Part shown: positions 17,156-62,015 of the stretch, piece after piece
Position numbering within the stretch: the stretch's first letter is position 1
How the letters are laid out: each line of letters begins with the position of its first letter
NCBI GenBank assembly: GCA_002245135.1
Contig: NGBS01000876.1
Span: forward strand, 124,001 to 188,000
Reading direction: 5' to 3'
Length of the DNA: 64,000 bases
Origin: Proteromonas lacertae
Lineage: Eukaryota
Notes under the pieces: generated by a model
The model's database searches: none
Seen by the model: only the letters and a program-made list of their open reading frames with translations
Told to the model about the DNA's origin: nothing
Position numbers and translations under genes: made by a program

Positions 17156-20100
17156 TTATTCATCTTTAGATAATTCATTCTTTTTTTCTTCTGATATTCC
17201 ATCTAATATTATTTTTCTGATTGATGAAAATGTTTTAAGAAATGATTTTAATTCTGATTTATCTATATTTTCTTTCACTGTCATTGATAATTCATCATAT
17301 CTATAAAATACTTCTTTGTTTTCTTTCATTAATCTCAACCCTTCTTCATTTAATTCATTTCCTGATATATCCACATAACTTAACTTTCCATACTTTTTTA
17401 TACTTTTTATTAACATTTTTAATCCTTTCTCACTCATTCCAACATCTATTTATAACATAATATTATATTATATTCATAAAATACTTGAAAGATTTAATGA
17501 ATTATTATTAGCAAATTTATCAAAATATTTACATATTATCTCTATTCCTTCATCTCCAATTGGATTGCCATATATTGAAATATATTCTGCTGTTTTAGGC
17601 AAAAACTCTATTAATTCTTTCAATCCTTTTGAAGTAATTTGATTATTGGATAAAAAAACTTTCCAATAATTAATCTTCTTTATTAATGGAATAAAAGAAT
17701 CATTCAGATTCAAATCTATTTCATAACATATTTATATTATATACTTGATAAATCACATGAATATCTTTTCTTAACACAATAATTCAAATAATATTTCACT
17801 TCTTCATTTGTCCATGATGAATTTTTCATTTCTATAAATGGATATTCTTCTTTTTCTAATGATTTTGAACAAATTGATTTTAATCCATTCATTTTGATAT
17901 TATTTCCTTTCAGATCTATTATTTTACATCCTTTTATTGAATCTAATGCATTTGATAATAATATCACACTTTCATCATCAATTAATGTATTACTCAAAAA
18001 TATTTGATCTATATAACCTTCCAATAAAATATTTAAATGGTTTAGTAATACCTTAAATCCATTATTACCAATTGGATTATCTAAAAATACATTATAAAAA
18101 TTATACTATAAATTCTCATTTTACATACACTCCATCTTCTATTTTTTATCAAATATTCCATTCCTTCTGAATCAATATTATTATCATATAAATATAGTAT
18201 ATCAATGTATTTTTGAATATTCTTTAAACCATCAACCAAATATTTCAATCCAATTGAAGATAATCCCATTCCTATAACACAATAAATGATTATAGTAATA
18301 CTTGAACAATCAATATAATCTTTCCGATCACAACATATTAACAAATTCATATGTGGAGATAATATTTTCATTCCTTCATCTCCTATTTCATTTCCTTTTA
18401 CACTAAGATATGTAAGTCTTGTAAAATAAGACATATTGTTCATTAATACTTCCACACTTTTGTCTGTAAGTTTATTATCTAATCAATAGAAAAGCATCAA
18501 ATTATACTATCTAAATTTAGATATTGCATCTCTCTAAGTTCATTTAATCTAAATGAAATGAATGATGAGAAAAAAACATCATCAATATCTAAATCGCTAA
18601 GATGCAATCCATTACTATATCTGATGAATTTCATCAATTCAGGAATGTCTTTATCTATCAGCAATTCTTTATTTCTTTTAACATCAAAATCAAAATCAAT
18701 TTTTGAAATAGGAAATTTAGAGAATATGGCTTTCAATCCTTTTGAATAAATTCTATTATTATTTCTAATATCTATTCTTCTGAGATTTGGATATTTATAT
18801 AATTCTTTTGATAATAATATCATTGATTCATCATTCAATCTCATTTCAGAAAGGATTAATTCATTTTCTTTGCTGATTAACAAATACAAATATGGAATTA
18901 ACAGTTTAAATCCCTTATTATCAATTACATACTCTATTTCATAATAATCAATAATAAAATAACTAATACGATTAAGACAAACTTGTTTTAATTTCATGAA
19001 TAGAATTGATTTAACAAATGATTCAATAAAATCAGATGTTAGATTATATCCAGATAAATCTATTTCTTGAAGGTTTGATAACTGTTTTAAATATGATATA
19101 AATGATGAATGATGTTGAATTGGAATATCAACACTATCTAATTAAATATAAATTATAAAAATAATACAAAATCTGAGTTTTGTTGGATTGATTAGTTTTA
19201 TTATTCTGAAGAAATAATCTATTCCTTCTTCATAACAACAAATACTATTTGATTTAACATTCATTCTTATTTCATCTCTTTCAATATAAATAGATAAATT
19301 TAATATCATTTTATCTAAATAGCAACTTTTGCCATCTTTGCACTTATGATATACTTGTGGTATTATCATTTCTTTGATTCTTTCATCTAATGATTTTGTT
19401 AATAATATTGATAGAATTTCATCATTACATTTAACATTATAAATTGATAAAAGATATTTATGTATAACTATATTTCAAAAATTATAATTAATATACTATC
19501 ATCATTTCTATTGTAATATTTCTTTGGAAATAATATAGGAAAATGAAGCAATTTATTATCATCATTATATAACACTTCTTTTCTTTTATTATCTATCATT
19601 AATAAATAACTTTCATTTCTTCTAATTGTCTTTTTCAATAATAGAACTTTCAATTCTTTTAAACTCAATCTATCTTCACTCTTCACTTTCAACATTCTTT
19701 CTATCATTTCTTTCATTTTCTTGTTACTTTTTCTTTTAAACTGTATTTACATATCAAATATTATTCATTCTTTTATTCATATTATTATCTTCATTAAATG
19801 GTAATTTCTTGTTTATTATCTCATATAAAATACATCCAATTGACCAAATCACACTTTTCTCATTACATTCTAATCCATTCAACTCTTCTGGAGTTTTGAA
19901 ACAAATATCATATATTCTCAAATCTTCTTCTTTTCTTAGTAAGTTCAAGAATAAATCACATAACTTCATTTCACCATCATCTTTATATATCACATTAGAA
20001 CCCTTCAAATTACTTATCACTATTCCATATTCATTGAATATCATCAATATATCACAAATTGATAGAATAATTTTACATTTATCATCACTAGAAATGGTTT

Positions 20101-20439
20101 TATTTTGAATTAACCCCTCTAAATCTCGCATATAATACTCTCTTTCCAACATCATCATATTACACCCGATGATCTGTATTTCTGAAGGATAGGTACAAAA
20201 TGAACAATAATCTAACAGAAAACAATTATTTTCACTGAATTTCAATATCTTCTTCTCTTTAATTCCATTGGTATTCAACATTTTAACTACTTTGCAGTTA
20301 TTTTCATGTTTAATTACCAATTCTACTTCATTTTCATTCTTTTCTTTTCTTTCTTTGATCTATTACATATATAAATTAAGCATACTTCTAATTTCGGTAA
20401 TTTATATTTCAATATCTCTTCTATGTGATGATTTAACAT
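17156..20439 (-). CDS. Pseudokinase-LRR family protein, multi-exon (copy A)
   Basis: ATG at 20439 with a first intron restoring frame. Kinase-like motifs ISNLKGSNV, DLF, KTPEE, VIWSIGCILYE. LRR exons such as GNEIGDEG, NNQITSKG and GNPIGDEG separated by ~28-nt introns. Confidence 0.75.
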
Positions 20440-27990: not shown

Positions 27991-30900
27991 TTTTTCTTAA
28001 ATTCTTTTGCAGATGATATAATATCTTCAATATTATCTTCTGATATGAAAGTATTTTTGTTGATTTATTATTTTAGATAGTAGAAATAATTGAAAAGAGA
28101 GATACTGAAATTGATTTGCTAATAGTAAATAAAAATGATATGAAAATGATGAAAATAGTTAATATAGATGAAGTAGACATAATTACTATATTTAGGTTTT
28201 GTGAAAATAACTTATTATTGTTAGATTGTTGTAATTCTCTCATGTACATATCACAAATACAGTTTATCATGTGTAATATGATGGTTATAGAACAAAATTA
28301 CTATGTTAGAGATTTAGAGGACTTAATAAAGAGTGAATGTTCATTAAATGATGATATTTGCAGTATGATATTTTCATTGTGTAATAATTTGATGGTATTA
28401 AATGAATATGATGTAATGGTAGGTAATTTGAAGAGTAGTAACGTAATAATTGAGAATGATGGTGAAATAAAGATATGCGATCTATTCTTGAATGAGTTGA
28501 AAAAAAATGAAGATATGAGTATTTATGATATATGTTTCAAAAGTTCTGAAGAGTTGAATGGGTTAGAATGTGATGAGAGAAGTGTAATTTGGTCAATTGG
28601 TTGTATATTATATGAAATGATGTTTAAGAAATTACCATTTAATGAAGATGATAATATGAATAAAACCAAAGACAATATTCTCAGATGTAAATACAGTATT
28701 GATGTAGAATGTGACAATTCTATGAAAGAGATTATAGAAAGAATGTTGAAAGTGAAGAATGAAGATAGAATGAGTTTGAAAGAGTTGAGAAAAGAGATTA
28801 TAAAAATGAGTGAGATATTGAGAGATGAAAATGATTATCTAATTATATGTAAATCAAGAAAAAAATCATTCTTTAAAAACGATAAAATGATACTCACATT
28901 TCCTATTATATATCCACAAAAGTATTATCTCCAAAGCAATGAAAGAGGAAGTATATATATGTAATATGAAATTCTATTTTTAACATTTGAATAGTAATTC
29001 GAGATGCTTTTATACAATCTTATAACAATCAACCAAATGAAAGAAAACTGTCATTACTGTTGATGATGAAATTATACAATGAAGATTATGCAATATACAA
29101 TAAGATGAAATTTCAAATTAACCACAAATGTAATGAAGTACAAGAATGCTATTTAGATGAAAAGGTGTTTAACATTTCTTCTAATGTTAATGACAAAGAA
29201 ATAATCATAGTTAGTAAAGAGTCTATTTGTTTCTGTGAAGAAGGAATAAAATATTTCTTTAGAATCTTGAAATTAATCAATAAACCAAAGCTCTTATTTA
29301 GTATTTTTTCTTATCATTTACATTGAATTAGGTATGGTTGATATACCATTCAAACTTCAGTCATTTTTTTCATCATTTTTTTCACATTTATCTAATCTTC
29401 AAGTATTAGATGTTCAGAGAGGTGGTTTAACTTTTCGTTTTGTTGAAACATTTGTTAAGTCAATTCCATTTATGAAATTAGAATATGTTAATCTTTCAGG
29501 TATATATTTTACATTTAAATACTTTCTTTAGCTAATCCAATAGGTCCAGAAGGATTTAGATTATTACTTCCATATTTGCATTTGTTAATTAACAAAGATA
29601 ATAAAATGGATCTTTATGGAATGAGATTAAATGATGGATCAATAATCTTATTATCAGAAGAATTATGTAAATATCCAAATCTTGACAGAATTGGGCTTAA
29701 ACAAAATAGTAATATACAATGGAAAGGATTAAAAACCTTATTCTCCAAATTCCCAATTTCAAAAGTAGAATTTGACTTCAGAGGAAATAAAAAGTTATTG
29801 AATGATAAACACATACCTAAACTAGTTAAATACATTTATGAATTAAATGAATTAAATCTGAGCGATTCAGAAATTGATGATGAAACGTTCAAATCATTCA
29901 TGTCATTAAGATTAAACGAAATGAAAAAGGTCAAAAAGCTTGACTTGAGTTGTATATTTGATATTTCTCTATTATTATTTAGATAATAGATTAACAGATC
30001 GAAGTGTGGAAATACTAATTGACAATTTATCTTCTTTATCGAGTCTTACATATGTTAAACTTAATGAGAATGAAATACGGAGATTGTGGAATGATTATAT
30101 TATCTCAGCATTTACATTTAATAAAAGATTGCTATAAATGCGTTTACTGTTCAAGTATTATAATATTAATAATAACGTAATATTAAATAGATATGGGATT
30201 AACTTCAATAGGATTAAAGTATTTAGTGGATGGATTAAGGAGTATGAAAAGTAAGTATATCACACTTGATATAAGTGAAAATGATATTGATGAAGATGGA
30301 ATAGAATATTTGATGGATTATCAAAAAGAGAATGACTGTATTAGAAAGTTAGAAATTGATAGTATTATTATATTTTGTTTATTATTAACAGATAATCCAA
30401 TTGGTAATAAAGGATTAAGAATGATTTTAAACAATTCAAAGGTGTTAGTTTTCTTTACTTTAAATGTGAGTAATACTTCAATTAATGATGATAGTGTAAT
30501 GATATTAACAAAAATGATAGAAATGATTAAAGGATATACTTTTACAATAAATCTAAAAGGAAATAATTCAAAGATGAAAGGATTAGAAACCATTTGTTCA
30601 AAGTCGTTAGAAAAAGAAGAATACTCGTTTATAGAAATGAACAATCCCTCATGGACAAATGAGGAATTGGAATATTATCTTAATTATTGTATAAAAAAGA
30701 CTATAGGAGATTATAACTACGATTTTTCAAGTATATATAATAAATCATTTCTAATAAAATAGATTTAAACATTAAAGATTCTCAAATTTCACTGATTAAA
30801 CAGATTGATTATGAGTATCTTGATCTATCAAGTAATAGAATCACATCAGTAGGATTAAAGGAATTAACAGATTCTTTACAAGAAAGAGTAAAATATATAT

Positions 30901-31313
30901 CGGTATATAATAATCAAATTGGAGATGATGGAATAGAAATAATATGTGAATACATAGAAAAGTTTGTCAATAATAGTCTGTCAATAAATCTATCGAGTAT
31001 AAATATGATTTCTATAGTTTAAATAGATATTGGGATGAGTGGAAAGGGATTAGCAATGTTATTAGAAAGATTGGAATATTATACTCCAATAAAATCACTT
31101 ATTCTTTTAGAAAATATGCTTGATGAAAGAGAATTGAGGTTGATGAGAGAAAATCATAAGATTCTTGAGTATTTAGAAGAATTATCAATAACATTGAAAG
31201 ATAATATAGATAAATCAGAATTTGAGTTATTTTTGAAAAGATTCTCTTTTATTAGAAAGATAAAACTAAAAGGTGTGAAAGAAGAAGGGAAAAAAGAAAA
31301 GTATATAGAATAG
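27988..31313 (+). CDS. Pseudokinase-LRR family protein, multi-exon (copy B, paralog of copy A)
   Basis: Motifs VGNLKSSNV, DLF, VIWSIGCILYE, LKVKNEDR. LRR exons are colinear with 17156-20439. One apparent frameshift near 30080. Confidence 0.75.
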
Positions 31314-31335: not shown

Positions 31336-33621
31336 TTATTGATATACAACCTTACAGTTGTTGATTAATCTATCTTTCAATACATTCCTCCATTTTTCAT
31401 TCATATTCTCTTTATAAATAATTAATTTCTTTAATTCATCTAAATGATTCACAATTTCAATAAATTCATCAATATTTGAAGATATTAAATGAATATCTAA
31501 AACAATATATACTAAACAACTATACATCTCAATTCTAGAATAAATGGATCTGTAATACAATAAAATAAATCTCTTTTCAGTGTATTTATTGGTAGAAGTG
31601 ATTTCTTAATTATTAAACCGTTTAACTTCGGTTTTTCTAAAGCAATATTAAAAAGAATGCAATAACTATTTATGTCAGAATTTAAATAGTATTCTGAACA
31701 TATTTCTATAAGAAACGAATAGTTATGTTTTATTTCATTTTTCATCTCTTTATCTTTTATACAGTATTTATTACTCTTCATCATATCCTTCACTTTGTTC
31801 ATCATTAAATAGTTTGGATGTTTGGAAATGATAAAATTCAATACTTTATCTGGAGAATTACATACTATTCTATTTCCAGATAATCGAATTTCCTTAAAGA
31901 AATGGTTAGATTGAATTAATTTTTCAACTCCATTTTTGGATATGAAATTATCTATATTTAATTAATTCAATAAACTATACTCTTTATGTACAATTCTGAT
32001 AAATTGTTGTTATAATATAAAGTTTCAACAATATAATCAATTGAATTATCAGTAAGGTTATTCTCTATAATATAAAAAAGAGTACATATTACACAGTTTT
32101 GACTGTATTTAAACCTAAATTTCTTAGGTAAAGTAGTTTATTCAATCCATCACACAAATATTCAACGCCATCATCGCCTATGATGTTTCCATGAAGAATA
32201 ATGTATCTCAAATAGGGAGTAGAAGAGAAACATCTTGATAAAGCCATCATATGATCAGATGTTAGATTATTCTCTATAATACATATATTAACATAGTTAG
32301 AATATACTTTGCATATATAAACCTCTTAAATTATGCAATGGTATGATTGATCTAATAAACTCTAACAGCGAATTACGATTTGCTCTTAAATCTATATTAC
32401 ATAATACAATATATATATATATATATATATATACATGGAAATGTTAATGAGTCTATTTTGTTCAATCTGTTTAAGATATGTGATATATTGTTAAGACTGT
32501 TTTCTGTTATTGGATTTTCTGAAACTCCAAATGATTGTAAATTAGTCAAACTACTAACAAATGGTAATAATTCATTCATATATTCATCAGAAAGATCATT
32601 ATCTATATTAATCAATGTATAATATTATATATATATTATACTAGATAAAGAAATAGTAACAATATCACTATATGAATGCAAAACAGTCTTTAACAAATCA
32701 ATAATCTTTCTATCATTCAAATTCACATCATCAAGTATCAATTGAGTTAAATTTACTGAATTAGAAAGACATGTATTAATAATACTATACACTGTATTAC
32801 AAGAGAAATTATTAACTATATAACAATAATAATGATATATATATACCACAATAATAGCAATATTTTAATTGTTTTTCATTCAATAATACCAACAAATCAT
32901 CAAGTACATCATCTGTTAAATCACAATTTTCAATTGACAAATCATCTAACTTTCTAAAATTGTGTTTATACTTCACCATATATTCAATTCCTTTATTTTT
33001 AATTGGATTTGCTATATAGATATATAAATATATGAAATAATACAATGAATTGCAAGAGAAGTAAATGACTTTAAACACGAAATATTTTCACAAAAGTTAA
33101 GTAATCCACTTTCTGTTATATTATTCTCTATTTTTTATATTATATAAAAAGAAGAAATATACCTGAAACAAACAATGAAGATAAATCTGGTAACTGTGAG
33201 AGATTATCACTAAAATCAATAAAACCATAATCACTAATATAATTTGAATCTAATTTCAACAACAATAGTCTAGATAAACAAGATAAATATCTATTTAGTC
33301 TAATCAAATTATTATCATCTAAACCAATTTGATTCAAATACAACTCATTCAAATTTGGAATGTTACTAAAATTCTTACATAATAATTCAATATATTTCCC
33401 AATTTTATTCTTATTTAATGATAATAGCTTTAAGTCTGGTAATTGATAATTATAAAAGAGTAATGAGATATTGTCTTGGGTAAGATTACAGTCTATTTAT
33501 ATAAAGTAATTAGACAATTATACCATCAATTTTTAAGTGTTTCATATGCTTATAATCTAATCCAATAAGTAGTTTATTCATATTTTTTGAATCACATAAT
33601 ACATCTATTTGTATATACAAG

Positions 33622-33658
<37 letters not shown>

Positions 33659-35929
33659 ATTAGTATTAAGGTTTCGATATTATGTAGATTAGTTAATACA
33701 TGGTAAAATATTAAAAATGAATTATTATCACTACATTCATAATCACATATATCAATTTCTTGACCATATACTGAATATACTAGTTTTAACAACCATTTAT
33801 CATTAACTGTCGTTAAAGAATGTAATAAATGAGTTTGAAATCTAACATAAGGACAAAACAAAAACATATTCATTAATAAAATGAAAATATTTATATCTTT
33901 CTTTGTATTAAACATTTCTATTATTTCTGTATACACATCATAGTTAAACATATTCTTCATTACGACTTTTGATGTTATTGGGTATGGAGAGTAGAAAAAT
34001 AATTTAAAAATATCAAATGATTGTATATCATTATTCCATATTTTTATATTCGGTAATTTGGTTATTATTCTTCTTAGTTTTAATACTCCTTTTATTGATA
34101 GATCATTCTTATACATATTTAAATGTTCAAGAGAATTAGTCTTTTTCAATAACCATGTTAAATAACAAACTGAAGAATCATCAATATGTGAATCTACATT
34201 ATATAAATAAATAAATAAATCACAATATATATATATATATATAATACTAGAGATATATAATTTCTGTAGTTTATCTAAATATCGGTAAAGTATTAATTAA
34301 GTGAATTAATCTTTTTACAGTCAAACCACTGTTTGAGATTTTTAATGACTTTAAACTGTAGAGTACTATTGAATGACACTTCATTATTATTCTTAAAAAA
34401 AGTTGATAAATAATACACACTATTTGAGAGATTCAATTTAACTAAACTAGAAAATCCACCTATTATTTCTATATCTCTATCATTAGATATTTTAGTATTA
34501 TAAAAATTCATTATTTCTGTCTTTTCTGTATTGATTAAATTTGGTAATATCAAATCTATTGGATAATTATTACTATTTTGTATTGTAAGGTTTTCAATTA
34601 TTCGTTTAACAATTGATATTTGTTTAATATTCTTCAAATACTTTACAGATTTCAATTCTATACTACTACTATCATGTTCATCTTTTTCATTGGTAGTTTC
34701 TAGTGTAATTGAATAAGGTGATTTATTAGTAGATATATAATCATAATAGTATAAACTATCTTCATCAAATATCTTTGATATAAATGTATTGATTATATTA
34801 GAATAATGATCATAATAATCCCAACTTAATTGTATTATAAAGCTCATTACTAAATCGTTATAACAACGAGATTTCCATTTATTAAGAAAATCTAATAATG
34901 AATCTATTAATAATAATAAGAAGAAGATGATATACTTTTATTATTAATTATGTTTTTGTAATATATTCCATTGTATACATCATAGTAATTATTACCTAAC
35001 AGTAATGCAAATCTTGGTGAATATTCTATATAATAATAATAATAATAATAATATACTTGGTTTATATTCATTACTATAGAGTCTATATCCAATTTTTTGT
35101 AATTGAATTATAAATTCATTGATTGAACCTATTCTTCTCTCATTATTCTCTATTAAATTCTTTAAAAAGATATAAAATGGGGAATATTTATATTGATTTA
35201 TTATATCATTAATTTTATCATTAAATACTGGTGGATTTCCAGTCAAAAGTCTATAAACAATACAGCAAATGCTCCAGATATCATCTTTATCACAATATTC
35301 ACCATTTTTAATAATATTTAAACTGCAGTAAAACAGAGAATCAAAATCTAAATTTATAGTATCTTCTATTAGATATTGACTGTAATCTGTGATTTTGTAG
35401 GTATTATCATTAGTTAATAGGACATTATTTGGAGTTATTCTACCGTGATAGAGACCTATATCATGTACTGATTGTAATTGTGAAGATATATCCTTCAAAA
35501 TGTGAAATAATATGTAAGAATCTTCTTCTTTTGATATTTTATCAATACATCCAAATGAGTAGTATGGTGAAATGATTTGTAATTTGTGATTTATTACCGT
35601 AAAATAATCATTTTCAAGAAATCCACTATACTCTTTTATTTTATTCACATTTTCAAACTATATATGTATTATATTTGATAATACTAATATTATATAATAC
35701 AAATTCTTCTATATTTTGTTTTATTTCTATAATTTTGAGAAATCTAATATCATCAGCTTCAATTGAGGATATTTGAAATGATCGTTTGTTCTTATTAGTA
35801 TTTAAAACGTTTAAAACCTATGACTAGATGAATTAGTGATATACTTCGTAATTCGGAGGTATTAGCATCTTCATCTATAAATAAAATATAAATAAATACA
35901 TTCAATTCATCAACATAATTATTATACAT
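31336..35929 (-). CDS. Divergent pseudokinase-LRR protein with many introns (copy C)
   Basis: Kinase-like HGRITPNNV, DYS, DIWSICC in 34992-35648. LRR exons such as SNYISDYG, ENPITENS, GNIIGDDG and NPIKNKG. Exon joins are only partly resolved. Confidence 0.65.
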
Positions 35930-36005: not shown

Positions 36006-37568
36006 CTATAATGTTATGTTTCTTGTGATAAAACTTCCATCGTCCATTATTTCATTTGTTTTTATATGATATATTCCACTTACATCACATGTCACATGAA
36101 AATCAACTCTACATTCGCCTTGCTTCCTTTTTGTTATGGGTATTCTTTCAAATCCTATCAGATTTATTTCATCTTTATCAATATCACCTTCATATAAATC
36201 AGCATCCATAACTTCTTGGTTATCCATATAATTAACTACAGTAAATGATTCATCCACTTCATCCAATGGAGTATTCTTTTTTATAATACAATAATATTTA
36301 TCTTTATCATTTTCAACATCATAAAACTTTGAATATATATTCTTTGTAATAATATCTTTGAATTTCATATTCATAAATCTTTTTTCATTTGCAAGTATAG
36401 TTGCTCCATATGCAACTGCTTCTTGAGCTCCTATATCACTCATTATTTCAGTATCAGGAAATTCTTTTTCTAATTTTGGTCTTATAGATGATATTGCACT
36501 AGATCCACCAACTAATATTATATAATCTAACTTTGGTATTTTATGTTCAACTTCCTTATAGACTTTCTTTGTTAAATAAATTGTTCTTTCAATTAATTCT
36601 TCAATAATATCATTAAATTCAGCTAATGATATTTCTACATCAATATCATTATCTTCAAATATATCTAACTCAACATTTGCGCTAGTAGATTTACCATCAG
36701 TTAATATTTTTTTTGCTTCTTCACAACGAGTTCTACATTTTATGATATTTTTTTCATTCATTTCTTTCTTCATTTCTTTTTTATATCTCTTCTTATAGAA
36801 TTCAACCATAGCTTCATCAATATCTTCTCCTCCTAAATGCGAATCTCCTTCAGTTGCAATTACATCAATCTCTGGATGTTCATAATTCAACAACAACTTT
36901 ATAATCGACACATCAAAAGTACCTCCTCCAAAATCATACACTAATATGTATTTATATTCGTCACTCTTTGCATTCTGTTGAATAACTTGATGTGCATATG
37001 CCAAAGCAGCAGCTGAAGGTTCATTGATGATTTGGATTACTCTTAAATTTGCATTTTCTGCTGCTATTCTTGTCTTTTCTCTTTTAGTACATGTAAAATA
37101 AGCTGGAACAGTTATAACAGCTTCTAATGTAGTATTTATGTCTACACCAATACATATACAACATCTATCATGTATTTCTTTCAATATTGCTGAGGATATT
37201 TCTTCAGCTGTCCATAACTTTTTACCTTCCTTATTCCAATAATCTGTCTCAACCATGGGAATACCATTAATATTTTTTACTCTATCTTTAAACTGCCATC
37301 TTTGTAAGTCAATTTGGAACTGTTTACTATCATATTTCATACCTATGAATCTCTTTGAGTCATATACTACTTGTTTACTTTTGTTAACATCATATTTACA
37401 TCCTGCACCGACTATTATTTTTTTCTGTTTTATATCAGGGAATATAACTGATTCAAGCACATGATTACCTCCATTTTCTGTTATGATCTCTATTCTATCT
37501 GATTTATATATTCCACATGCTGAAAATGTTGTACCTAAATCGATTCCAATTTTAAATGTTGCAGTCAT
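36006..37568 (-). CDS. Divergent, intronless Hsp70-family protein lacking the C-terminal lid and EEVD
   Basis: IGIDLGTTFS, AVITVPAYF, IINEPSAAALAY, ILVYDFGGGTFDVS, GDSHLGGEDID, IILVGGSS. Only 520 aa. Confidence 0.9.
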   Translation of the reverse strand: MTATFKIGIDLGTTFSACGIYKSDRIEIITENGGNHVLESVIFPDIKQKKIIVGAGCKYDVNKSKQVVYDSKRFIGMKYDSKQFQIDLQRWQFKDRVKNINGIPMVETDYWNKEGKKLWTAEEISSAILKEIHDRCCICIGVDINTTLEAVITVPAYFTCTKREKTRIAAENANLRVIQIINEPSAAALAYAHQVIQQNAKSDEYKYILVYDFGGGTFDVSIIKLLLNYEHPEIDVIATEGDSHLGGEDIDEAMVEFYKKRYKKEMKKEMNEKNIIKCRTRCEEAKKILTDGKSTSANVELDIFEDNDIDVEISLAEFNDIIEELIERTIYLTKKVYKEVEHKIPKLDYIILVGGSSAISSIRPKLEKEFPDTEIMSDIGAQEAVAYGATILANEKRFMNMKFKDIITKNIYSKFYDVENDKDKYYCIIKKNTPLDEVDESFTVVNYMDNQEVMDADLYEGDIDKDEINLIGFERIPITKRKQGECRVDFHVTCDVSGIYHIKTNEIMDDGSFITRNITL

Positions 37569-37715
37569 TATGAGAATAAAAGAAAAAAATAGAGTGTAAA
37601 TTTGACATTATTTGACTTAATATTTTTACACTATTTTTAAAAACACAATTCTAACATCTTAATATAATGAATTATAAAATTAAATTAAACTAGACTTCAA
37701 TTATAAACACACACA

Positions 37716-50192: not shown

Positions 50193-53100
50193 ATGAATAA
50201 GATAGCATTTATATCGTTTTATTTGTTTATAAATTGTATTTTTTGTTATAAAATTGGGTATTTATATGAACAGAATAAACCAGAAGTAAATATTTTGGAA
50301 TTGGATACAGATTATAATAATTACTTAAATACTGCTAATCCAGATAAAGTTCAAATAGAAATCGTAGGACATGAATATGATGGAAGTGAAAATTCTATTA
50401 AAGAGAGTTTAAAATTCTTTCATGATGAATCTATCACTGTAATATATGTGTATTGCACTGAGAATATTTATAAAACAAATGAGACGGTGTTGCAGAGTTA
50501 TGGAATTTTATTTTGGTGTTTAAATCCATTAGGAACAGGAGAATGTAGAAGATCAATAGTAGCAGGATCTTCATATGCTGCAACAATTGAATCATGTATA
50601 ATAATTATTCTATATATATATATATTTTTTTTTTTTTTAATTAGTATCTGCATTATTGATTTACTATGGAAAGCCAAATTTAATATTCTTAGGATATTCT
50701 GAGCAGTTAATAGATGATTATTATGAGAGTCACATATTCGAAATGGTTAAACAATATGGTTTAAACATTGCATTAAATGAAAGAATTAATGATGCAAATA
50801 AAACAGATTTTGATAATTACATTGATACATATGTATTTAAACAGGAATATGTAGATGAAGGTATGTTTATATTAACCAGTATCAATGATATTACATTAAT
50901 TAATAAATTAATTGCTAAAAGAAACAATAATCATGATGTAGAAATCATTTTGATGACTGGAAGTGTTACTCAAAAAGACATTAAAGATAGTATTGTTTTA
51001 GATGATTATTTTGTGTATTATATGACTAATTATTGGCCAGGAGTTGCTCCTAATAACCCAGATGATTATTATAATGATCATTACACTACTGCTGCTGGTA
51101 ATACAAACACTGCTATTTCAGATGTTAAACCAGAAATTGCTGTTATTTCGTATAATTATATTATTATTTATGTATAGAATGGGTATTTTAGATATGCTTC
51201 ACCAAGTAACCAATCAAATCGATTCAAAAGATGTGTTTTCTTACATGTCTATATCTTATAACAATGAATTTGATTATCCAGGAGGGAAAATAGTATTAAG
51301 TGAAACTCAATATTTGTCAACATCAATGTATATTGTTGAAATGCATAATGATGCTGGTAATAAAAAATATTCACAATATTCTCCAATTGGAATGAATATT
51401 AAAAGTCAACCGATGGAAGTTTATGGTGTTATTCCACTGCAAGAATGTTCATTTATATCTAATCCAATTGATGGCTTAGTTGATAATGATATAATTACTG
51501 TTCTATTGATTAATAATATTCATAATTCAATGAAATATAGAGGAATTCATACAAGATTGGCATTTAAACAATTGATTTCTTATATTAATAATAATGAAGG
51601 TGGATTATTAGATAAACAGATTTATGCATTGTTTTTGGATGATGATGATAATAATATGTTAGAAAAAGTATAAATTTCTTCATAATTCTATGTTTTTTTC
51701 TTTTCTTTTATAGTTGAAGAATATGATTGAACAATATTCTCTATCGGCAATATTTATATCTTCAGAAAATGATATTAGAAACACAATTATTAACTGTGAT
51801 GGAATAAAAAATAATAATAACATCATGTTCTTTGATATTGAACCAAATGAAGGTGAAAACTGTAATCATGATATTATATTTGTATCTATATTTATATATT
51901 ATATATTATATATTATATAGGGTAATATGATGAATAATAATTTCGCACATGAAGCACTTCGTTATTTTCAAAAGACTAATGTTGATAGTGTTTTCTTAGT
52001 TGGTTCAATAGAAACATTTGGAAAGAACACAAAGAAGATATTAAATGATTTATTCATAAAGAATGGAATGAAGATAATAGGTAACTATGATATGACTAAA
52101 ACGAATGATTCATCTTATTTAATTCAGACTTTAGAGTATTATGCTGGTAATTATACGAATGGAATGTATGTGCTTATAACTGCAGAACAGAAGTACAATG
52201 ATAATATATTTAAAGCACTAAAAGCTGCTAATTTTACAAAAACAAATGGTTGGTATATAATGTCAGTTACGTTGGATGATATTCAAATACATGAAATTGG
52301 AGGAGAATATGTATTAATTTTGATATATATATGTATATATATTAATAGTTAAGTGGTTATATGTATTTGGCTCACTATTTTGATTCAATGAAAAATTCAC
52401 TTTTAGAAGGAATAAAACTTTCAATAAAAGAACAGACAGGTGTAGATGAAAAGCCAATATCCAATCATATTGCAGTATTATGGAATATGATGAATGTCTG
52501 GAAAGAAGTATATTTTATTTATTTATTTTATTTATTTAAATTAGTCTGTTGATTTATGTAGAAACTCAACTCCAGCAGCTTATAAAGAATTTATCTATCA
52601 TCATCCGCTTTCTATTAGTCCTGGAGGTGTTTATACTGTTAATTATAATGGTTATACTGATTTCATGGCAAGAGAAGCAATAATTACATATAATCCTACA
52701 TCAAAAGAAATAGGTAATATTATAGTATATGAAACTTCATTTACACAGTCATCCAATATATTTTCAAATAATTCAATCACTTGCAGTTGGAAAGATCCAA
52801 GTAATCCAATAAAACCCATACATAATTACAAGATTGGTATATTATTTGATATTCAAACTACACAAGGATTTATTCATTACGAAAATGTGCAAATGATGGC
52901 TGAAATACTGAATGAAGAAGGAGGTATAAATGGTGTAAATGTTGAATTAATCACTCCCAATACATCAATGAGTAATTATTTAGAGAATATAACAGCAATA
53001 ATTGAAGAAATGAATAGTGATCCTGATTTAATTGCATTTATTGGTACATCTTCACCAGAAGAAAGAGAATTAGTAAATCCAATATTAAAGGATATTGATA

Positions 53101-56100
53101 AATTATTATATGTGTTTCTAAGAGGAGAAGGTGAAGTTAGTTACTCTAATATTGTATTTATGAATACTATTCCATCTCAATTAATTGAATATCCATTTAC
53201 TGTTATTGCAGGTAGATCTATTGGAGCTAATAAGATATTATTATATGATGAAAATATACCATTTTCTAATGCAAGTTATGTTTATCTCAAAGCATTAGCT
53301 GCTCAATTGAATGTTCAATTTTCTGAGACAATAAAAGTAACTGATACTACAGATTATGATGTTTTAGTTGATGGTTGGAAGAGTGGTACATGCAAAGATA
53401 ATAAATGTTATATATTATTGTTAATTAAACAAAATACTGAGAAACTATTCAACTCTTTTTATACTAAAATGGATGCTGATAAACATAAAATTGTAACATT
53501 TGATATGATCAAAAGTGATATTAATGATGTAGCTAATCCATTAGTTCTAGATAAACATTATTATATCAGTAGTTATTTATCAACCAGTAAACTTGCTGCA
53601 AATACAATCATTACAGATTTAGTGAAGAAATATAAAGGAGAACCTTCTAAACTGTTAAACGAAGAAACTGTAAGTGTGTATAATATTTTAAATACATTAG
53701 TGTCTGTATATGAGGAGATTGATGTGAAATCATCAGCAGATAACGTGAAATTGGTATTATATGCTACAAATATTGATTCACCACAAGGAACAATGAAAAT
53801 AAATGAGAATAATATTGCTTATTCATACAGTAGTATTATTTTATTGGATGATAAGAGAGGTGGTAGTACTTATTCAATTTATCCATTATCAATTGAACCA
53901 GTTGTTTATTCTTCATTAGTATATTATCATATATTATTTTTTAATTATTTATTTTTTCAATAGTTGAATGATAATGTTTATTATGAAGTAAATTATGCCT
54001 TAGGTCTTGTAAAAACTGAAGAACAAATCATTGGAGTTGCTTATATATTGGATCTATCATCAGAACAAGGTTATAATAACTATCTAATTGGTAAATATTA
54101 CATTGATAAGAATAACGCATTAGGAAGAATAAAGAATAGAAAAATAGTAAGTGAAATTCACAATTGTCCAAGTGATTCAGATAAAGCTGCTGGTTTAATA
54201 ATTAATTTACATCAAAGAGGATTTGATATTATCATAGGTGGATGTAATCCAACAGTTAGAAAATATATCAGAACATCAATTGAATCTTTAAACATGATAT
54301 TGATTTATACTGGAAATAACAATGGTAGAGAATGTTCTAAGAATATATTTTATGCTTCAAGTTCACCATCTCAACAAATATATAATTCTATTTTACACTT
54401 TTATTGGAAAGAAAATAGAGACTTTGTTTTTTTATATCAAAATAGAGATATTTGGTTGGATATGATTAATTTAGTTAAGACAATGTCAGTTGCTCATAAT
54501 TACAATATCAAATATGAAAAGGTATTATCATCTGGATTGACTAGTCAAATAATCACATTAATTATAGATGAAATAATGTCAATATATTCAGAGGGAATTC
54601 CTATCTTCATTATTGTAGAAGCTGATTATATTGATATGATAATGAAAGCTTCCAATAGTGGTGAAAAGAGAGATTTATTTCCAGTTTATGCTTTCCATCA
54701 AGATGGTGTTAAATATAGTAAAGGAACAGAGAATAATTATGTTTATACAGCCTATATTTCAGACGATACAAATAAAGAATTTGTGGATGAATTTCATACA
54801 TTAATGGGAAAGGACCAAGATCCAACTTATTTTGATGTATTATCAGCATCAGTAGTAATTTGGTTGTGTGAAACATTAGGAAATTCAAAATCACTTAGTA
54901 TAGATGATATTAGAAGTGAATTCTATAAAACAGAAACAGATACACCTTTAGGTAAAGTCATATCAAGAAAGTGCAATCATATTTCACAGAAACAAGTGTT
55001 TGGTGTAGTTGATGAAGATGGTATTATCAGATTGAATGAAATAATTGCACAATCAGCTCCAGGTGATCCTTGGAGAACAGATTCTGATTTTTATCCATAC
55101 ACATTATGTGATTGGTTATCTGAAACAAATCCAGGTGAAAAAGTAGTATTAGATACTTATTATATTGGTATTTTATTCCCTGATAAATCATATTATAAAA
55201 GAAACGCTTTATTAGTGAATCAAGCAATTAGAGCAACAACTGAAGCTATTGATTCTTATAGTAAAGACTTCTTATTATCTTCAATTATATTACCTTTAAC
55301 ATCGAATTATAGTAAAATACCTGAATTAGTGAAGAGTTATATGGATAAATATAATATATCTTTATTTGTAGGTGGTTGGGATACTGAATCAAGAAATGCG
55401 ATTGATTATGAAATGAAAGAAATCAACAGATTGTTAGTATATCCCTATAATTATGAAAGTAGAGAGTGCTTAAGTCATACTTTATATTTAGGAACACCGT
55501 TTTCATCTTATTATGTATTTGGCAATTGGATTTTAGACTATGATTCTTCATCTGTTATTATATTATATTCAAGTTCTACAACATCTAGAAAAATACATGA
55601 ATCTTTGTTAAGTCAATTTGAAGTATATTCAATAACTACAACTTATGAAGCTGAAATTCCCTTAGAAATTGATAATTTAGAACCAATCATCTCGTTAATT
55701 GGTAAAATATGTCCAGATGGTGCTTTGATAGTGAATTTAATGGAAGGAACTTCCAATGAATTATTATTCACGGCTTTAACAAGTTTGAAAATGAAACCAC
55801 CAACATATGTTACAATTAATTTTAATATAGATGCATTGATGTTGAATAAAGAGTATGTAGGTCATTATTATTGGTTTAATTCTGATACCGTAACTGATGA
55901 AGCTTTTATTAAGCAATATAATGATTTAAATACATATCACAAAGGTGTAATGGTGTCTGTAGTTGTTCAGTCAGGAATGTCTGTAGATATATTCTATAAG
56001 TGCATGAGAGATATTGCAGATCCATCCACTATGAAGATGTTACAATATTTCATTGATAATTCTATTGACACTTATACAGGAACAGTGAAATTTGAATTAA

Positions 56101-59100
56101 ATAATCACTTGCCAAATACAGTGAATGTTAAACAGGTTATATTGAATGATGATGGTTCTATTAGTACAACTATAACTGGTCATGATACAATGACTTATAC
56201 ACCAGATCCATTTATGTCATTAGCAAATGATGAATCTTATTATATTTGTAATTTTGATACAAATTATGAAAAGAAAGAAGTTGAATATTTGTATTTAGGA
56301 GTTTTGTTAAGTATGACTGGTATTTATTCAAATTTGTATAAGTCAATGTTAGCTGGTGTATTAGTAGCTGTTCGTAAGTATTATGATGATAGATTATTGA
56401 CACTGAATAAGAAATTACAAATCAAAATATCAGATTATAGAAATGATTTGTCCAATATTGAGCCAATAGCAACAGAATTATATTCTGATGATAGTGTAAT
56501 AGGTATTGTTGGCTGTGTTTATGCAGAATGTAAAGATATTGTCCAACCAATATCTACTAAATATGGAAAACCATTCTTATATCCAAGATCAACAGCTGGT
56601 CAAGAGTGTAACAATGACACAATTTATGGTGGAACTGTTCCAGGTCAAGTAAATCCAAGATTATTATTGTATTTAATTAGTTTAGATTATAATCAAACTA
56701 TATTCTTTATTGGTGATACAACAGCAGAAACTGAAATAAGATATCAAATCTTAGAAGATACAACAAGTGGTTTATTAGCTAAAGGTGATAGAATTAATGT
56801 AACATCTGATAATGATATAAATATAGGAAATCTATCTGAAATATTGAGTAATAATTATGGTGGTATTATTGTCACATCTTTATCTGTGTCTTATATGAAA
56901 GTATTGTTAGAGAGATTAACAAATCTGTTAATGGATACTACAAAGTGGGTAATCGTCAATTTGAACTTAGAATATGAAGAGTTTAAAGATATACCCAATA
57001 GTAGCAAGTTAAATTTGAAGATATTATCCAATTATTTCAATGATATTGATGTAAAATATAATGATGATATAAAACTACTATGTGATCATTATTCTTTATC
57101 ACAATATATCACTTCTACTATTGTTAATACATATATTATTACTTCATTATATGTAAATGCAATTGAAGATACAAATTCAACAGAATGGGATAAAGTTCGT
57201 TTTAATATGTATAACAAAAACATAGATAGTGGTACAACAGAAGTTACATTTGAATCAAGTCATTATCTTACTTCACCATTCTTTGTTGCTTCTTATAATA
57301 ATGATATAAAAGACTTTGAAACTATTTATTTCAAATATGATACACCATCACCAAATCCTTGGAGTTGGAATATTAAAGAGACTGATGATTTAAGATGTGA
57401 TTTTAGTGATCCATCCCATGGTGAAAAATATCATGTAAATGTTAGAAAGATCTTATTATTAGCTGAAATAACAGGAGCAAATTCCTTATATAGTGATGGA
57501 GTTATTGAAAGTTTTCAATTAGCAATTGATGACATTAACAGTGAAAATGGAATACAAGGTAATACTATAAAAGCTGATATTTATGATACACAGTCTAATG
57601 CAGATATTTGTGATAGTTATGTGAGTGATTATATAGCAAAGAATTCTCCTTTAGTTATTGTTACATCAGTTACTCAAAAATGTATGTCAAATATATTAAG
57701 AACTTTAAAATCAACAAGTACAATGCTGTTGAGTGTAAATGATCCAGATTTTGACTTCTGTAGTAGTGTTATTAGTTTTGGTAGTGCAAATCCAAGTTTA
57801 TATATGAATATATTCAATATAGTAAGAAATAGATTAGATTATAAACAACATTTATTGATTTATAGCACTCAATTCAGAGTAGGTGAATTTTTATCGTTTT
57901 ATTATGATCATTATGTTTCATTAGTCTATTCATTTAAATATACAGTATTAGATGAAAATGAATTACATAAATTCTTATTAAGAGCTGATATGGAATTAAC
58001 TACAATCATATATATTGCAGCATCAGCTGATGAATATGAAGTAATTCATAAACATTTAGATGGAATGAATATGATTGAACCAATATTTAGAAGAATAATT
58101 TTAATCAACTTTGATGTTATTAGAAGTAGAGGATTTAGAGAAATTGAAGGAGTATATTTCTATAACTCTCAAAATCCTGATAATGATGAAATAAATTATC
58201 AATATATAACAAATATATATCAAAGAATAGATAAATCATCACCAATCACTGATTTAATGGAAAGAACTTATTCAATGATAATGTTATGGTTTAACGCGTA
58301 TAGAAATGCAGATTCATTAGGTTTAACTCCAATGAAAAATCAAATGTATATCACAAAATACCATTCCCCAGAAGGAAGTATTTATTTTGGTAAAAACCTA
58401 TTCATGGCTCGAACACCTAATTTGAAATATATTGATAAAGATGGTAAAGAAATTATAGTTCATAGAAGTTATGAACCAATAATTCCAGATCCATATATCA
58501 TGCAGGATGATGCAGAGAGTAAGATAATATGTGATATATCCTCAGGAGGTATTGGTGAGAAAGGTTATTATGAATCTTATTTAGTTGGTATTATTTTAAG
58601 CATAACTGGTGATTGGGCTGAATATGAAATGCCAATTTTAGATTCAGTTATTTTAGGGATTAATTATATGAATGAGAATGATATGTTGTTAGGAAAATAT
58701 TTAAGTTTTGCTTTATATAATGCCAATTCAACCAATGATAATTATGTTAAATTTATCAATCAAATTATTGATGAAGGAAAAATCACTTTTGTGTTTGGAG
58801 GATATTTTAAAGAAACTTATGAAGTAGTCGAACCATTAGTATTTAATTCACCAATTTTCTTCTTTTACACTGGTTTAAATTATAATACAAGTTGTTCTAG
58901 CTAATGTAATAGTAGGTAATATTCATCCAACTCAAATGGCTGAAGCTGTATTAAGAAGGATTATTACCAAATACAAACACTGTAGTAATGTTGTCAAGTA
59001 CTGATTATTATTCAAAAAACTTTTCAACTGCTATTGCTAATAGATTAAGAAGTGTGTCAATAGTTGCTGATGATATTACATTCTTAGATAACACACAACA

Positions 59101-62015
59101 GATTGTACAAAGAATAAAAACAACATTAAGAGAAAGTGGTTATATTATTAATATAATATCAAGTGAAGAAGAGAATATAAAGTTTTATAATTTAATGTGT
59201 GAGAATGAGATTGTTAGTCCAAATTATATAATTATTAACATATTAATGGATGAAACTATAATGAGGAAATTGCCAATCAAGTGTGTGAAAGGTCATTACA
59301 TGATGTCTAGTTATTTTGAGAATTTAGGTTCCTCCTTATACAATACAAAATCTGTTATATCTATAGCTGATTCTTATAATCAAAAATTGCATGATAGAAT
59401 TGGAGATAAGATATATATTAATAATATAATAGAGAATGGTTATTCCATAGTAAGACTTTGGTCTGTAATTATACAAAAAATGAATACTTTTGATGTAAAG
59501 AGTTCAAAATCAACAATTTATGGAATTCCAGTAGAAGTTCCATCAGGTTCAATAGAATTGACAACTAATAATATATTAAGTAGAAAAATATACAGTGGAA
59601 CAATAGATAGCAATTATAATATAGTGATTGATTGGGCAATAAGTAATGAATATGAAGCTTCAATATATGATCAATATGACAGTAATAGCGAGTTTATTAA
59701 TTATTATTGTGACATTACTATTAGTAATCATTCTGTTTTGTATAGAAATCCAATTAGGATTGCATTTATTCATCAAAAAGATGATGGATTCTTTACTGAA
59801 ATTTATAACAGTATTATTCAAGATATGACACTTAAAGAAATTAATAATAATGGTGGAATTATTAATAGATATATATATGGAAAACATTTCTTTGTTTCTA
59901 ATTCACAGATTTATATTACATTGAAGAAAATATTAGAATCAACTGAAGAATATAAATTAATTATGGGAGGTTTGTCTCCTCAAGCCAAAGAAGAAATTAG
60001 TCGTTATATAGTCAGTAACAACATATTGTATATGTATACTGGAAGAGATGATGGTAGTGAATGTACAGTAAATACAATACATACTGGTAGTAGTATTACT
60101 CAAAAAGTGCCAAGTTTAATTACTTATTTAAAAACAATTGGATTGTCTAATGTTTTGGTGATTGGTGGATTAACAAATAGTACTTCAGTAGAAGCTGATT
60201 ATTATAACACACAAGCGAAGAAAGCTGAATTTGATGTAAAACAACCCATATTTATAAGTCCATATTTAGAGAGTAATATACAGAGATTTTTAGATGAAGT
60301 TGCTGATATTTTAGATGTTCAAGGTAATTTAGTTATTATTAACTTGTTTAATCCTACAGAAAATAATGTATTTTTAAAGCCTTAAATGAAAATGGATTTA
60401 TATTCAATAGTGTTACAATGGTATTAATTAAATATGATCCATATGACATAGATTCATCATTAACAAGTTCATTATTTGGTTATTATATAGCAACAAGTTA
60501 TTCAAATACAATATCTAATACACAATCCAATACATACCAATACAGTGTACAAGCTGAGTTTAATAGTGAGATAGAAATATCAGAGACGTTAGAAAACAGT
60601 TATTCGTCAATTTATTTCTATAAAAGTGCAGTGGAATATGCTAGAGATCAAACTGATGAAGAATGGCCTGGAACAAATTATATTCGAATATCAATGAAGA
60701 ATGTTATAACTGATGGTCCAAGTGGTACTTATAGTTTAGAAACTAACAATTTTGTTACTAAGAATATATACATATTTCGAATAGGAAATGGATTTATGTT
60801 ACAAGTTTATCCAAAGAATGGTAAAATCGAAAGTGTAGAAGCTCCAATGGTATATAAATCTGAATCTGAATGTACATTTGGAAAAGAATTGAAGTATTAT
60901 GATTTTGATTCATCTGTAGTAACAGTGGTTTATACATTGATGATAATAAATGTTATTTTAATAAGTGGAATATGTTTCTTTGTAATCTATTTCAGACATT
61001 CTCGAATAATCGTTAGTTCTAGTCCGATATTTTTAGTTTATACTTGTTTTGCATTAATATTACTATCAGTCGAAGGTATAGTATTTACATTTCGCCCAAC
61101 AAATGATATAATTTGTGGATTAAGAAACTGGGGCTTAGCTGTTTCGGTGTTATTTTTATTCAGCATATTATTTAGTAAAGCTTGGCGAATTCATAAATTA
61201 TTTAATAACAAACAATTACAAAAAGTAAAAATCTCGAATTGGATGTTACTAAAGATGATAGGAATGATGGTAGGTGCAGAGATAGTATATTTAGTAATTT
61301 GGTGGGTTGTTAAACGAAGTGAAACTGAACTAAGATACAGTGTTGGCTTATCATCATTTTTAGAAGATGTTTATATTTATCAATGTACAACAAATGATGT
61401 GTTTATGTATTTATATATTTTTTCTATATTATATTATTTAATAACAATAGAGGAATTCAATTAGCTGCATTTTTCATGTTGTTCTTATGGGGTGCGAAAT
61501 TAGCTTGGGGTGTAAGAAATGCAAGTTCTGATTTTAATGAATCAGTTTCATTAGCTTCAACAATTGCTGTAATGTGTATTTATAATTATATTATTTTATC
61601 ATAAATAGTATTAATTGGAATAGTATTTGTTCCGTTAGATTTTTTAATGGAAAGTGAGCCATCATCATTGGTAATATTTCGATGTTTTGGAATAGAAATA
61701 GGTTGTTTAGCAATTCAAATATTACAATTTGGTTCAAAAATCACTTACATTTATCATAATGAAATGACATCTACTACTGGTTCAGCATCAATGGGTAGTG
61801 GAAGTGGAAGTGCTAGTAGAAGTGGAAATAGTAAAGGAAAGAGATCTCAATCAGTGAATTTAGCTAATAAAGGTAGATTTGTAGTTAGTCCTGATTTATT
61901 ATTTGAGAGTGATATGGCAGTTTGTTCAATCTCTTTACCTGAGTTATTTTATGATGAAGGTGGAGCTGGTCACAGTGCTGCTAATTCGATGGTAAAATCA
62001 GTAACAAAGATTTAA
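50193..62015 (+). CDS. Giant class C-type GPCR: signal peptide, nine tandem UrtA/AmiC-like periplasmic-binding (Venus flytrap) domains, 7TM_3 domain and short cytoplasmic tail (about 3,800 aa)
   Basis: Repeated PBP1 motifs (INxxGGI, (F/I)xGG...R, LLxY...EC...Y.G..P.Q, P.G...F..NH, PxPW...CD(W/F)). 7TM motifs RIIVSSSPIFL, C..R.W, FSKAWRIHKLF, QC, LAWGVRNASSDFNES. About 9 short introns. Apparent single-base indels near 58901, 58960 and 60378. Confidence 0.85.

What the first reader, a model, noticed from the sequence alone, without database searches (positions are those of the whole stretch)
50193..62015. Giant class C GPCR carrying nine tandem bacterial urea/amide-binding (UrtA/AmiC-like) Venus-flytrap domains
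Seen in sequence: after removing short GT-AG introns, the + strand ORFs from 50193 to 62015 form one protein of about 3,800 aa. It has a signal peptide, nine ~380-400-aa repeats starting near 50247, 51490, 52825, 54030, 55160, 56290, 57445, 58580 and 59755, and then a 7TM at about 60915-61735. Established knowledge: the 7TM motifs (SSP.F, K.WRI..LF, LA..VR....FNES) are class C (7tm_3, GABA-B/mGluR-like). Repeat motifs such as LFVGGWDTESRNAI..LLVYPYNYESREC..LYLGT and GREC.KNIFYASSSPSQQ match my recollection of the bacterial UrtA/AmiC/FmdD PBP1 family. Animal class C receptors have a single flytrap. Inference: this is a multivalent small-molecule sensor (urea, amides, amino acids) or a long surface antenna built by repeated duplication of a bacterially derived binding protein. 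I do not know of a described receptor with this architecture.
Basis: partly seen in the sequence, partly recalled or inferred. Interest (0 to 1): 0.93.

Follow-up and report, generated by a model that had tools for sequence, protein, structure and literature searches.

The report
Nine-flytrap receptor from bacterial urea binders
A protist gene encodes a very large seven-helix (class C) receptor with nine stacked domains related to bacterial urea-binding proteins; its own domains have lost the urea-binding residues and likely form a long sensing stalk, while distant relatives keep those residues and would be candidate urea-sensing receptors of eukaryotes.

Summary
Confirmed. The + strand at 50193-62015 gives a signal peptide, nine ~385-aa repeats and a class C 7TM (3,819 aa) after removing nine short introns. 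Three single-base frameshifts remain. Relatives read through all three and unrelated window genes show similar breaks, so they are probably assembly errors; no reads were available.

The repeats are 12-21% identical, and their profile matches solved UrtA end to end (E 4e-53); AlphaFold agrees. The 7TM is nearest GABA-B2.

It is a family: 20 of the top 150 profile hits join 2-9 such domains to a 7tm_3. They include an unnamed nine-domain protein, a Capsaspora protein and a chytrid protein. Repeats group by position across orthologues, so the array is old.

The urea reading fails for this gene: no repeat keeps more than 1 of 5 essential UrtA residues, and only R5 hints at a conserved pocket. The distant nine-domain relative keeps 5 of 5 in five domains.

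Best reading: a receptor on a mostly non-binding flytrap stalk with one or few active pockets. Host lineage, expression, ligand and G-protein coupling are untested. Ten literature searches found no description. New variant of a known kind.

The parts
50193..62015 (+). whole gene model, 3,819 aa with X at three breaks
   Evidence: collinear with P0002 (model aa 21-3234, 29%) and P0003 (aa 1272-3808, 32%)
50193..50246 (+). predicted signal peptide (18 aa)
   Evidence: hydrophobic N-terminus; same arrangement in P0002; no dedicated predictor run
50247..51490 (+). flytrap R1 (most diverged; holds introns 1-2)
51491..52823 (+). flytrap R2 (holds introns 3-6)
52824..54023 (+). flytrap R3 (holds intron 7); P0026 is 72% identical
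54024..55157 (+). flytrap R4
   Evidence: TIGR03407 E 2e-21
55158..56288 (+). flytrap R5, best candidate for a live pocket (keeps Trp120, Tyr141, Glu146 equivalents)
   Evidence: fold
56289..57443 (+). flytrap R6
57444..58577 (+). flytrap R7 (pocket columns more variable than average)
58578..59752 (+). flytrap R8 (holds frame breaks 1 and 2)
59753..60885 (+). flytrap R9, membrane-proximal (holds frame break 3)
   Evidence: fold of the P0003 counterpart
60904..61745 (+). class C 7TM (holds introns 8-9)
   Evidence: Pfam 7tm_3 E 4.5e-25; GABA-B2 E 4e-13
61746..62015 (+). Ser/Thr-rich cytoplasmic tail (22 of 89 residues) and stop
50596..50644 (+). intron 1 (49 nt)
51150..51177 (+). intron 2 (28 nt)
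51668..51713 (+). intron 3 (46 nt)
51882..51920 (+). intron 4 (39 nt)
52311..52348 (+). intron 5 (38 nt)
52508..52544 (+). intron 6 (37 nt)
53919..53963 (+). intron 7 (45 nt); its acceptor TAG is the apparent stop at 53963
   Evidence: P0002, P0004, P0038 read through
61407..61450 (+). intron 8 (44 nt)
61576..61608 (+). intron 9 (33 nt)
58899..58902 (+). frame break 1 (one base too many)
58951..58957 (+). frame break 2 (one base too many)
60372..60376 (+). frame break 3 (one base short, in a run of T)

Best explanation
This is one gene for a class C, GABA-B-like seven-helix receptor with nine head-to-tail UrtA-type flytraps that have lost the urea-binding residues; it is likely intact and likely works as a surface sensor in which most flytraps form a long stalk and only one or a few (R5 first) would bind a small polar ligand other than urea. 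Shown: domain order, homology, loss of the urea residues, and conservation of each repeat position across relatives. Predicted: the flytrap fold of the repeats, a defined pose between R5 and R6, and R9 linked to helix 1 by one short strand with no cysteine-rich domain. Inferred: the three frame breaks are assembly errors; closure of an active flytrap is relayed through the array to R9, which serves as the transducing adaptor; the 7TM then switches, probably as a dimer, and signals through a G protein. Ligand, dimer and coupling are untested.
For: One protein: P0002 covers the signal peptide and R1 to the start of R9 in one ORF, P0003 covers R4 to the tail, and the two overlap over 2,060 columns. 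Seven orthologues cross breaks 1-2 and two cross break 3. All 19 GT-AG candidates that could bridge the breaks lack the GTAT donor seen in 9 of 9 real introns. Unrelated genes show similar breaks near 8150, 10033 and 19755. Fold: R5-R6 pLDDT 85.7, pTM 0.88, best match UrtA; R9+7TM of P0003 pLDDT 84.5, urea-binding protein Z 41.4, GPR156 7TM Z 26.3. Old ordered array: 38 of 38 orthologue units map in order, 8 of 8 positions tested form bootstrap-100 groups, and a gene-internal expansion is rejected at p-AU 4e-37. Stalk rather than nine sensors: pocket identity exceeds background only at R5 (0.46 against 0.28), against 0.81 against 0.42 in single-domain controls; 0 of 158 units of AT-rich multi-repeat proteins keep 4 or 5 essential residues. 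Adaptor role: in P0001, P0041 and P0063 distal domains keep the pocket and the membrane-proximal one is degenerate.
Against: No reads or transcripts were listed, so splicing, expression and the error reading are unproven; breaks 1 and 2 are not in long homopolymer runs, and some other broken genes in the window are multi-copy kinases that could be real pseudogenes. No single orthologue spans signal peptide to tail. The R5 signal is nominal: p 0.020, 1 of 8 positions tested, about 0.16 after correction. At ~20% identity the pocket mapping moves with the alignment (differ at several positions). pTM is only indirect evidence for a fixed pose, and one junction of eight was folded. The R9-to-7TM orientation differs from GABA-B by about 26 A rmsd and is unsure (pTM 0.73). 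If the host is a Blastocystis, G-alpha may be missing: 0 in 8 of 8 strains (PMC12129017 Table S5).
Confidence: 0.45

Rival explanations
1. A multi-ligand integrator: every flytrap binds its own small molecule, the pockets diverge fast between lineages, and the receptor sums several nutrient cues.
For: All nine keep the full two-lobed domain length and position-specific identity. Variable pockets on a conserved scaffold are typical of chemoreceptor repertoires (own knowledge). R9 keeps an Arg/Asp pair at two pocket positions in 3 of 3 orthologues. P0001 shows that many live pockets can sit in one chain.
Against: At 7 of 8 positions pocket columns are not better conserved than random columns, and at R3 and R7 they are worse (0.07 against 0.24; 0.11 against 0.31). 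Relay from a domain eight units away from the membrane has no tested route.
Confidence: 0.2
2. An adhesion or touch receptor: the flytraps bind no small ligand, the glycosylated stalk contacts bacteria, mucus or other cells, and force or clustering switches the 7TM, as in adhesion GPCRs.
For: Loss of the pocket throughout the AT-rich group; 23 N-glycosylation sequons over nine repeats; conserved order and spacing; a large paralogue set of varied length.
Against: R5 keeps a Trp/Tyr/Asp/Glu pocket set in most of seven orthologues. The 7TM is class C and Pfam found no adhesion or autoproteolysis domain. Relatives with the same 7TM type keep urea pockets.
Confidence: 0.2
3. The three frameshifts are real: in this isolate the gene is a recent pseudogene or makes a secreted piece of about seven flytraps, although the family is intact elsewhere.
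For: Three breaks within 1.5 kb, two outside long homopolymer runs. Large receptor families shed pseudogenes (own knowledge).
Against: No in-frame stop from a substitution in 3,819 codons. The part after the breaks is the best conserved (7TM 54% identical to P0003). Similar single-base breaks occur in three unrelated genes.
Confidence: 0.13

Closest known systems
GABA-B receptor (GABA-B1/B2), class C GPCR
   Same: Nearest solved 7TM (E 4e-13); flytrap joined to the 7TM without a cysteine-rich domain; top Foldseek hits for the R9+7TM model.
   Different: One ANF-type flytrap against nine UrtA-type ones; no coiled-coil family hit in the tail; dimer not tested.
Non-animal class C receptors with bacterial-type binding domains (Bmp, OpuAC, SBP_bac_1, LysR_substrate, PBP_like_2; PMC3251606 section 20, PMC3971589 passages)
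   Same: A periplasmic-binding-protein domain fused to 7tm_3 in protists and early fungi.
   Different: The passages read name no Peripla_BP_5/UrtA type and no tandem arrays; the longest N-terminus given is 1,667 aa against about 3,475 here.
UrtA urea-binding protein (PDB 8HIC, 7S6E, 7S6F, 8TG1) and AmiC (1PEA, 1QNL)
   Same: Full-length profile match including the C-terminal Cys-Asp-Trp tail; TM-score 0.85-0.88 to UrtA.
   Different: 16-23% identity to the nearest single-domain protein, far below the TIGR03407 cut-off; urea residues lost; part of a eukaryotic receptor, not an ABC importer.
Capsaspora CAOG_05347 and Phlyctochytrium HDU96_010091 (database entries named hypothetical or family 3 GPCR)
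   Same: Peripla_BP_5 repeats plus 7tm_3; Capsaspora 7TM 32% identical.
   Different: About three and two flytraps; the chytrid's first domain keeps 4 of 5 urea residues; no study of either was found.
Tandem-flytrap sensors of other kinds: trypanosome receptor adenylate cyclases and Bordetella BvgS (recalled; PMC6027212 seen as a search listing only)
   Same: More than one flytrap in series above a membrane signalling module.
   Different: Two flytraps, single-pass, cyclase or kinase output.

Membership tests
Class C (glutamate family) GPCR | 7tm_3 domain above the curated cut-off | tested here: met
   89.2 bits against 33.5 on the exon holding helices 1-4; orthologue P0003 127.7 bits over the whole profile
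Class C (glutamate family) GPCR | seven membrane helices with the helix 3-ECL2 cysteine pair | tested here: met
   hydropathy; both cysteines invariant in 10 of 10 rows; seven helices in the P0003 model
Class C (glutamate family) GPCR | signal peptide and large extracellular flytrap-type N-terminus | tested here: met
   signal peptide by hydropathy only
Class C (glutamate family) GPCR | obligate dimer | not tested
Class C (glutamate family) GPCR | signalling through a heterotrimeric G protein | not testable with these tools
   no host genome is held; published counts give 7 G-alpha in Proteromonas lacertae and 0 in eight Blastocystis strains
mGluR/CaSR/T1R subgroup | cysteine-rich NCD3G domain between flytrap and 7TM | tested here: not met
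   no NCD3G hit; about 25 residues between the flytrap and helix 1 in the model
GABA-B receptor proper | single ANF-type flytrap | tested here: not met
   nine domains, Peripla_BP_5 far above ANF_receptor (338 against 59 bits on the longest ORF)
UrtA urea-binding proteins | type I periplasmic-binding fold with the UrtA tail | tested here: met
UrtA urea-binding proteins | TIGR03407 score above 492.75 | tested here: not met
   24-77 bits; TIGR03407 or TIGR03669 is the top hit for 10 of 12 pieces
UrtA urea-binding proteins | urea residues Trp120, Ser122, Gln144, Tyr190, Asn246 | tested here: not met
   at most 1 of 5 in each of 9 repeats; met in 5 of 9 domains of relative P0001

The most novel reading that the evidence does not exclude
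An undescribed, eukaryote-wide class C family built on whole bacterial-type urea-binding domains: members with intact pockets (P0001, P0041, the chytrid protein) are the first urea- or amide-sensing GPCRs, and arrays of up to nine flytraps relay ligand binding through several domains and a degenerate membrane-proximal adaptor to one 7TM; the AT-rich lineage of this window re-tuned the pockets into a large chemosensory repertoire.
Probability: 0.3. Interest if true: 0.88.

Novelty: new variant of a known kind. Interest (0 to 1): 0.72.

Why it matters
Class C activation is understood for one flytrap per chain. A family with two to nine flytraps in series makes it testable how, or whether, binding in a distal domain reaches the 7TM, and the two-domain chytrid protein is a minimal model. 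Relatives with intact pockets give a rare orphan protist GPCR with a specific ligand prediction (urea), of use for nitrogen sensing in protists and for biosensor design. For gut stramenopiles it bears on a published contrast noted only in a supplementary table: 116 class C and 182 flytrap-domain proteins in Proteromonas against no class C protein in eight Blastocystis strains.

Tried and rejected
Separate genes at 53963: rejected, it is an intron acceptor and three orthologues read through. Cryptic introns at the three breaks: rejected, none of 19 candidates has the GTAT donor and the aligned orthologues hold residues there. Stop codons made by polyadenylation: the recalled Blastocystis motif occurs at 5 places in the window, one 50 nt after the gene's stop and none at the breaks; weak, as the motif is not universal. 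Recent gene-internal duplication or an assembly stutter: rejected.

Searches that gave nothing: no sequencing run was listed (no evidence either way); no whole genome is held, so paralogues and G-alpha could not be searched; two word-indexed protein searches found nothing; two metagenome scans found no locus (329 and 596 pattern matches, none confirmed). The Atlas gave only single-domain binding proteins and ~800-900-aa class C clusters, mostly diatom; it holds only clusters of 50 or more.

Alignment A2 was worse than A1 and was dropped. R1 was left out of both trees for poor coverage.
Full report
The gene. The window is 25.6% GC, gene-dense eukaryotic DNA. From the ATG at 50193 to the stop at 62015, nine introns of 28-49 nt, all GTAT...AG and 5-17% GC, join the ORFs. 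The model has 3,819 residues: an 18-residue hydrophobic leader, nine repeats of 377-391 residues, seven hydrophobic helices and an 89-residue Ser/Thr-rich tail. It is flanked by a divergent acyl-carrier-protein-like gene ending near 49780 (read from the sequence; the label is recalled) and a convergent gene beyond 62249.

The breaks. The stop at 53963 is the TAG that ends an in-frame intron. Three breaks are not introns: one base too many near 58900, one too many near 58955, and one too few in a T run near 60374. None of the 19 GT-AG pairs that could bridge them starts GTAT. Seven orthologues (P0002-P0007, P0009) align straight through the first two, and two (P0003, P0007) through the third. 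Single-base breaks also interrupt a kinase-LRR gene at about 10033, an ORF at about 8150 and a kinase at about 19755 on the minus strand. There is no substitution stop in the model. I read the breaks as assembly errors (about 85%), but no run was listed, so this is inference.

The repeats are real. Pairwise identity is 12-21%, yet each scores 37-115 bits on a profile of the other eight against under 12 for shuffles. A profile of ten window pieces matches UrtA structures over positions 2-384 of 387 (8HIC E 4e-53), AmiC at 2e-21 and a branched-chain amino-acid binder at only 0.006. The match includes UrtA's C-terminal Cys-Asp-Trp tail, so the whole mature protein is the repeat unit. Urea-binding-protein models are the top NCBIfam hit for 10 of 12 pieces, all far under the cut-off. 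AlphaFold folds R5-R6 at pLDDT 85.7 and pTM 0.88, with UrtA as best match (TM 0.85-0.88). The 7TM passes Pfam 7tm_3 and is nearest GABA-B2 among solved structures. The last flytrap plus 7TM of orthologue P0003 folds at pLDDT 84.5 with one short strand between the two and a hairpin in the second extracellular loop. Its parts match a urea-binding protein (Z 41.4, 2.8 A, 358 residues) and GPR156 (Z 26.3, 3.0 A, 255 residues), while their relative orientation is unsure.

It is a family. The profile found 2,526 proteins at E 0.001 among 1.84 billion. Of the best 150, 42 have three or more repeats and 20 have two or more plus a 7TM. Pfam, run on 41 of the 150, gives 7tm_3 for those 20, 18 of them above the cut-off. 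The ranking favours multi-domain proteins, so these are not frequencies. Thirty-nine of the 42 share the window's AT-rich composition; the 13 of them whose clusters I looked up are unnamed and from Logan assemblies only. Many start or end inside a domain, as expected for ORFs cut at introns. P0002 has a leader and R1 to early R9; P0003 has R4 to the tail; they overlap at 43% identity. No single orthologue spans everything. Outside this group: P0001 (3,745 aa, nine Peripla_BP_5 domains, 7tm_3, one ORF, unnamed, starting inside a domain), P0041 (three), Capsaspora CAOG_05347 (about three) and the chytrid Phlyctochytrium HDU96_010091 (two). Their 7TMs are 20-32% identical to the window's.

The array is old and ordered. 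All 38 full-length units of nine collinear proteins map to window repeats in order, each well above its second-best match. In a 45-row tree, 8 of 8 positions (R2-R9; R1 left out) form groups with bootstrap 100, and an 84-row tree adds a paralogous series in matching order at most positions. Holding the window's repeats together is rejected (p-AU 4e-37). Eukaryotic units stand apart from single-domain bacterial-type ones (93/94), but branches are long, composition differs and there is no root, so donor and direction are not shown.

The urea pocket is gone here. PMC10392092 (passages) names nine pocket residues, five of them essential. Mapped through P0047, whose motifs fall at the paper's numbers, the window repeats keep 0-3 of 9 and at most 1 of 5, under two alignments. 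Among 158 units of AT-rich multi-repeat proteins none keeps 4 or 5, against 52 of 101 single-domain units with all 5. Within positions, pocket columns beat random columns only at R5 (0.46 against 0.28, p 0.020, not significant over eight tests); controls give 0.81 against 0.42. In contrast P0001 keeps 5 of 5 in five domains, P0041 in one and the chytrid 4 of 5 in one. In all three the membrane-proximal domain is degenerate.

How it likely works. I commit to a sensor on a stalk (0.45): most flytraps are structural, one or a few bind a small polar ligand other than urea, and R9 acts as the adaptor that passes movement to the 7TM, in the place of the GABA-B stalk. Nine domains of 6-7 nm would reach some 50 nm (own estimate). 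Rivals are a nine-ligand integrator (0.2), an adhesion or touch receptor (0.2) and a true pseudogene (0.13). The architecture itself I put near 0.9.

Host. Unresolved. The neighbouring MRT4 has Blastocystis sp. NMH as best named hit (41%) but does not group with it. PMC12129017 (passages, Table 1 and rows of Supplemental Table S5) lists Proteromonas lacertae (27% GC) with 116 class C, 182 periplasmic-binding-I and 7 G-alpha proteins, and eight Blastocystis strains with no class C and no G-alpha. A gut stramenopile of this group is my inference. G-protein coupling is plausible in the first case and doubtful in the second.

What is in print. Bacterial-type binding domains on class C 7TMs are known: PMC3251606 (passages and section 20), PMC3971589 (passages), PMC12716839 (passages and section 9), PMC10445921 (passages). 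None of the text read names a UrtA/Peripla_BP_5 type or tandem arrays. PMC12965686, PMC8687355 and PMC5608401 (passages) added nothing. Ten searches turned up no description; 'Peripla_BP_5' with 'GPCR' gave 0 papers. Not seen, and could bear on novelty: Supplementary file 12 of PMC12716839 (one file held, no hit), most supplements of PMC5608401, the figures of all these papers, and the 2023 Proteromonas genome paper. Unchecked earlier notes of this scan report mollusc class C receptors with three and five flytraps, so stacking may recur.

Verdict. Observation confirmed, interpretation partly supported. A new variant of class C receptor, part of an apparently undescribed family whose best experimental members lie outside this window. 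Interest 0.72.

Noticed in passing
protein P0001: Unnamed 3,745-aa protein of GC-rich-type composition: nine UrtA-like domains (TIGR03407 total 2,996 bits) and a 7tm_3 in one ORF; five domains keep all five essential urea residues, the two nearest the membrane are degenerate. A better target for a urea-sensing GPCR than the window gene.
   Followed up: partly
proteins P0063 (Phlyctochytrium HDU96_010091), P0126 (Capsaspora CAOG_05347), P0041: Named or metagenomic class C receptors with two or three UrtA-type flytraps; the chytrid one is a minimal two-domain model.
   Followed up: partly
window 8150 (+), 10033 (+), 19755 (-): Single-base frame breaks in unrelated genes, suggesting an indel-prone assembly or scattered pseudogenes.
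   Followed up: partly
window 13574-16938 (+): Secreted-looking protein with a long run of cysteine-rich 'CGDGxC...CPxDCG' repeats ending in a polysaccharide deacetylase domain (Pfam E 1e-10); the repeats have no Pfam hit.
   Followed up: no
window 8721-10788 (+), about 17150-20360 (-), about 28077-31300 (+), about 32090-35660 (-): Several kinase plus leucine-rich-repeat genes, some clear paralogues (56% identical).
   Followed up: no
window 36006-37607 (-): Divergent single-ORF Hsp70-like gene of about 520 aa.
   Followed up: no
proteins P0029, P0030, P0031, P0036, P0141: Prokaryote-type proteins with UrtA domains at both ends around HEAT or NTPase parts, and one amino-acid permease fused to pentapeptide repeats and a UrtA-like domain.
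   Followed up: no
PMC12129017 Supplemental Table S5: Proteromonas lacertae 116 class C, 182 periplasmic-binding-I and 7 G-alpha proteins; eight Blastocystis strains 0 class C and 0 G-alpha but 1-2 G-beta and 1-5 arrestin-like proteins. The main text has no mention of GPCRs.
   Followed up: partly
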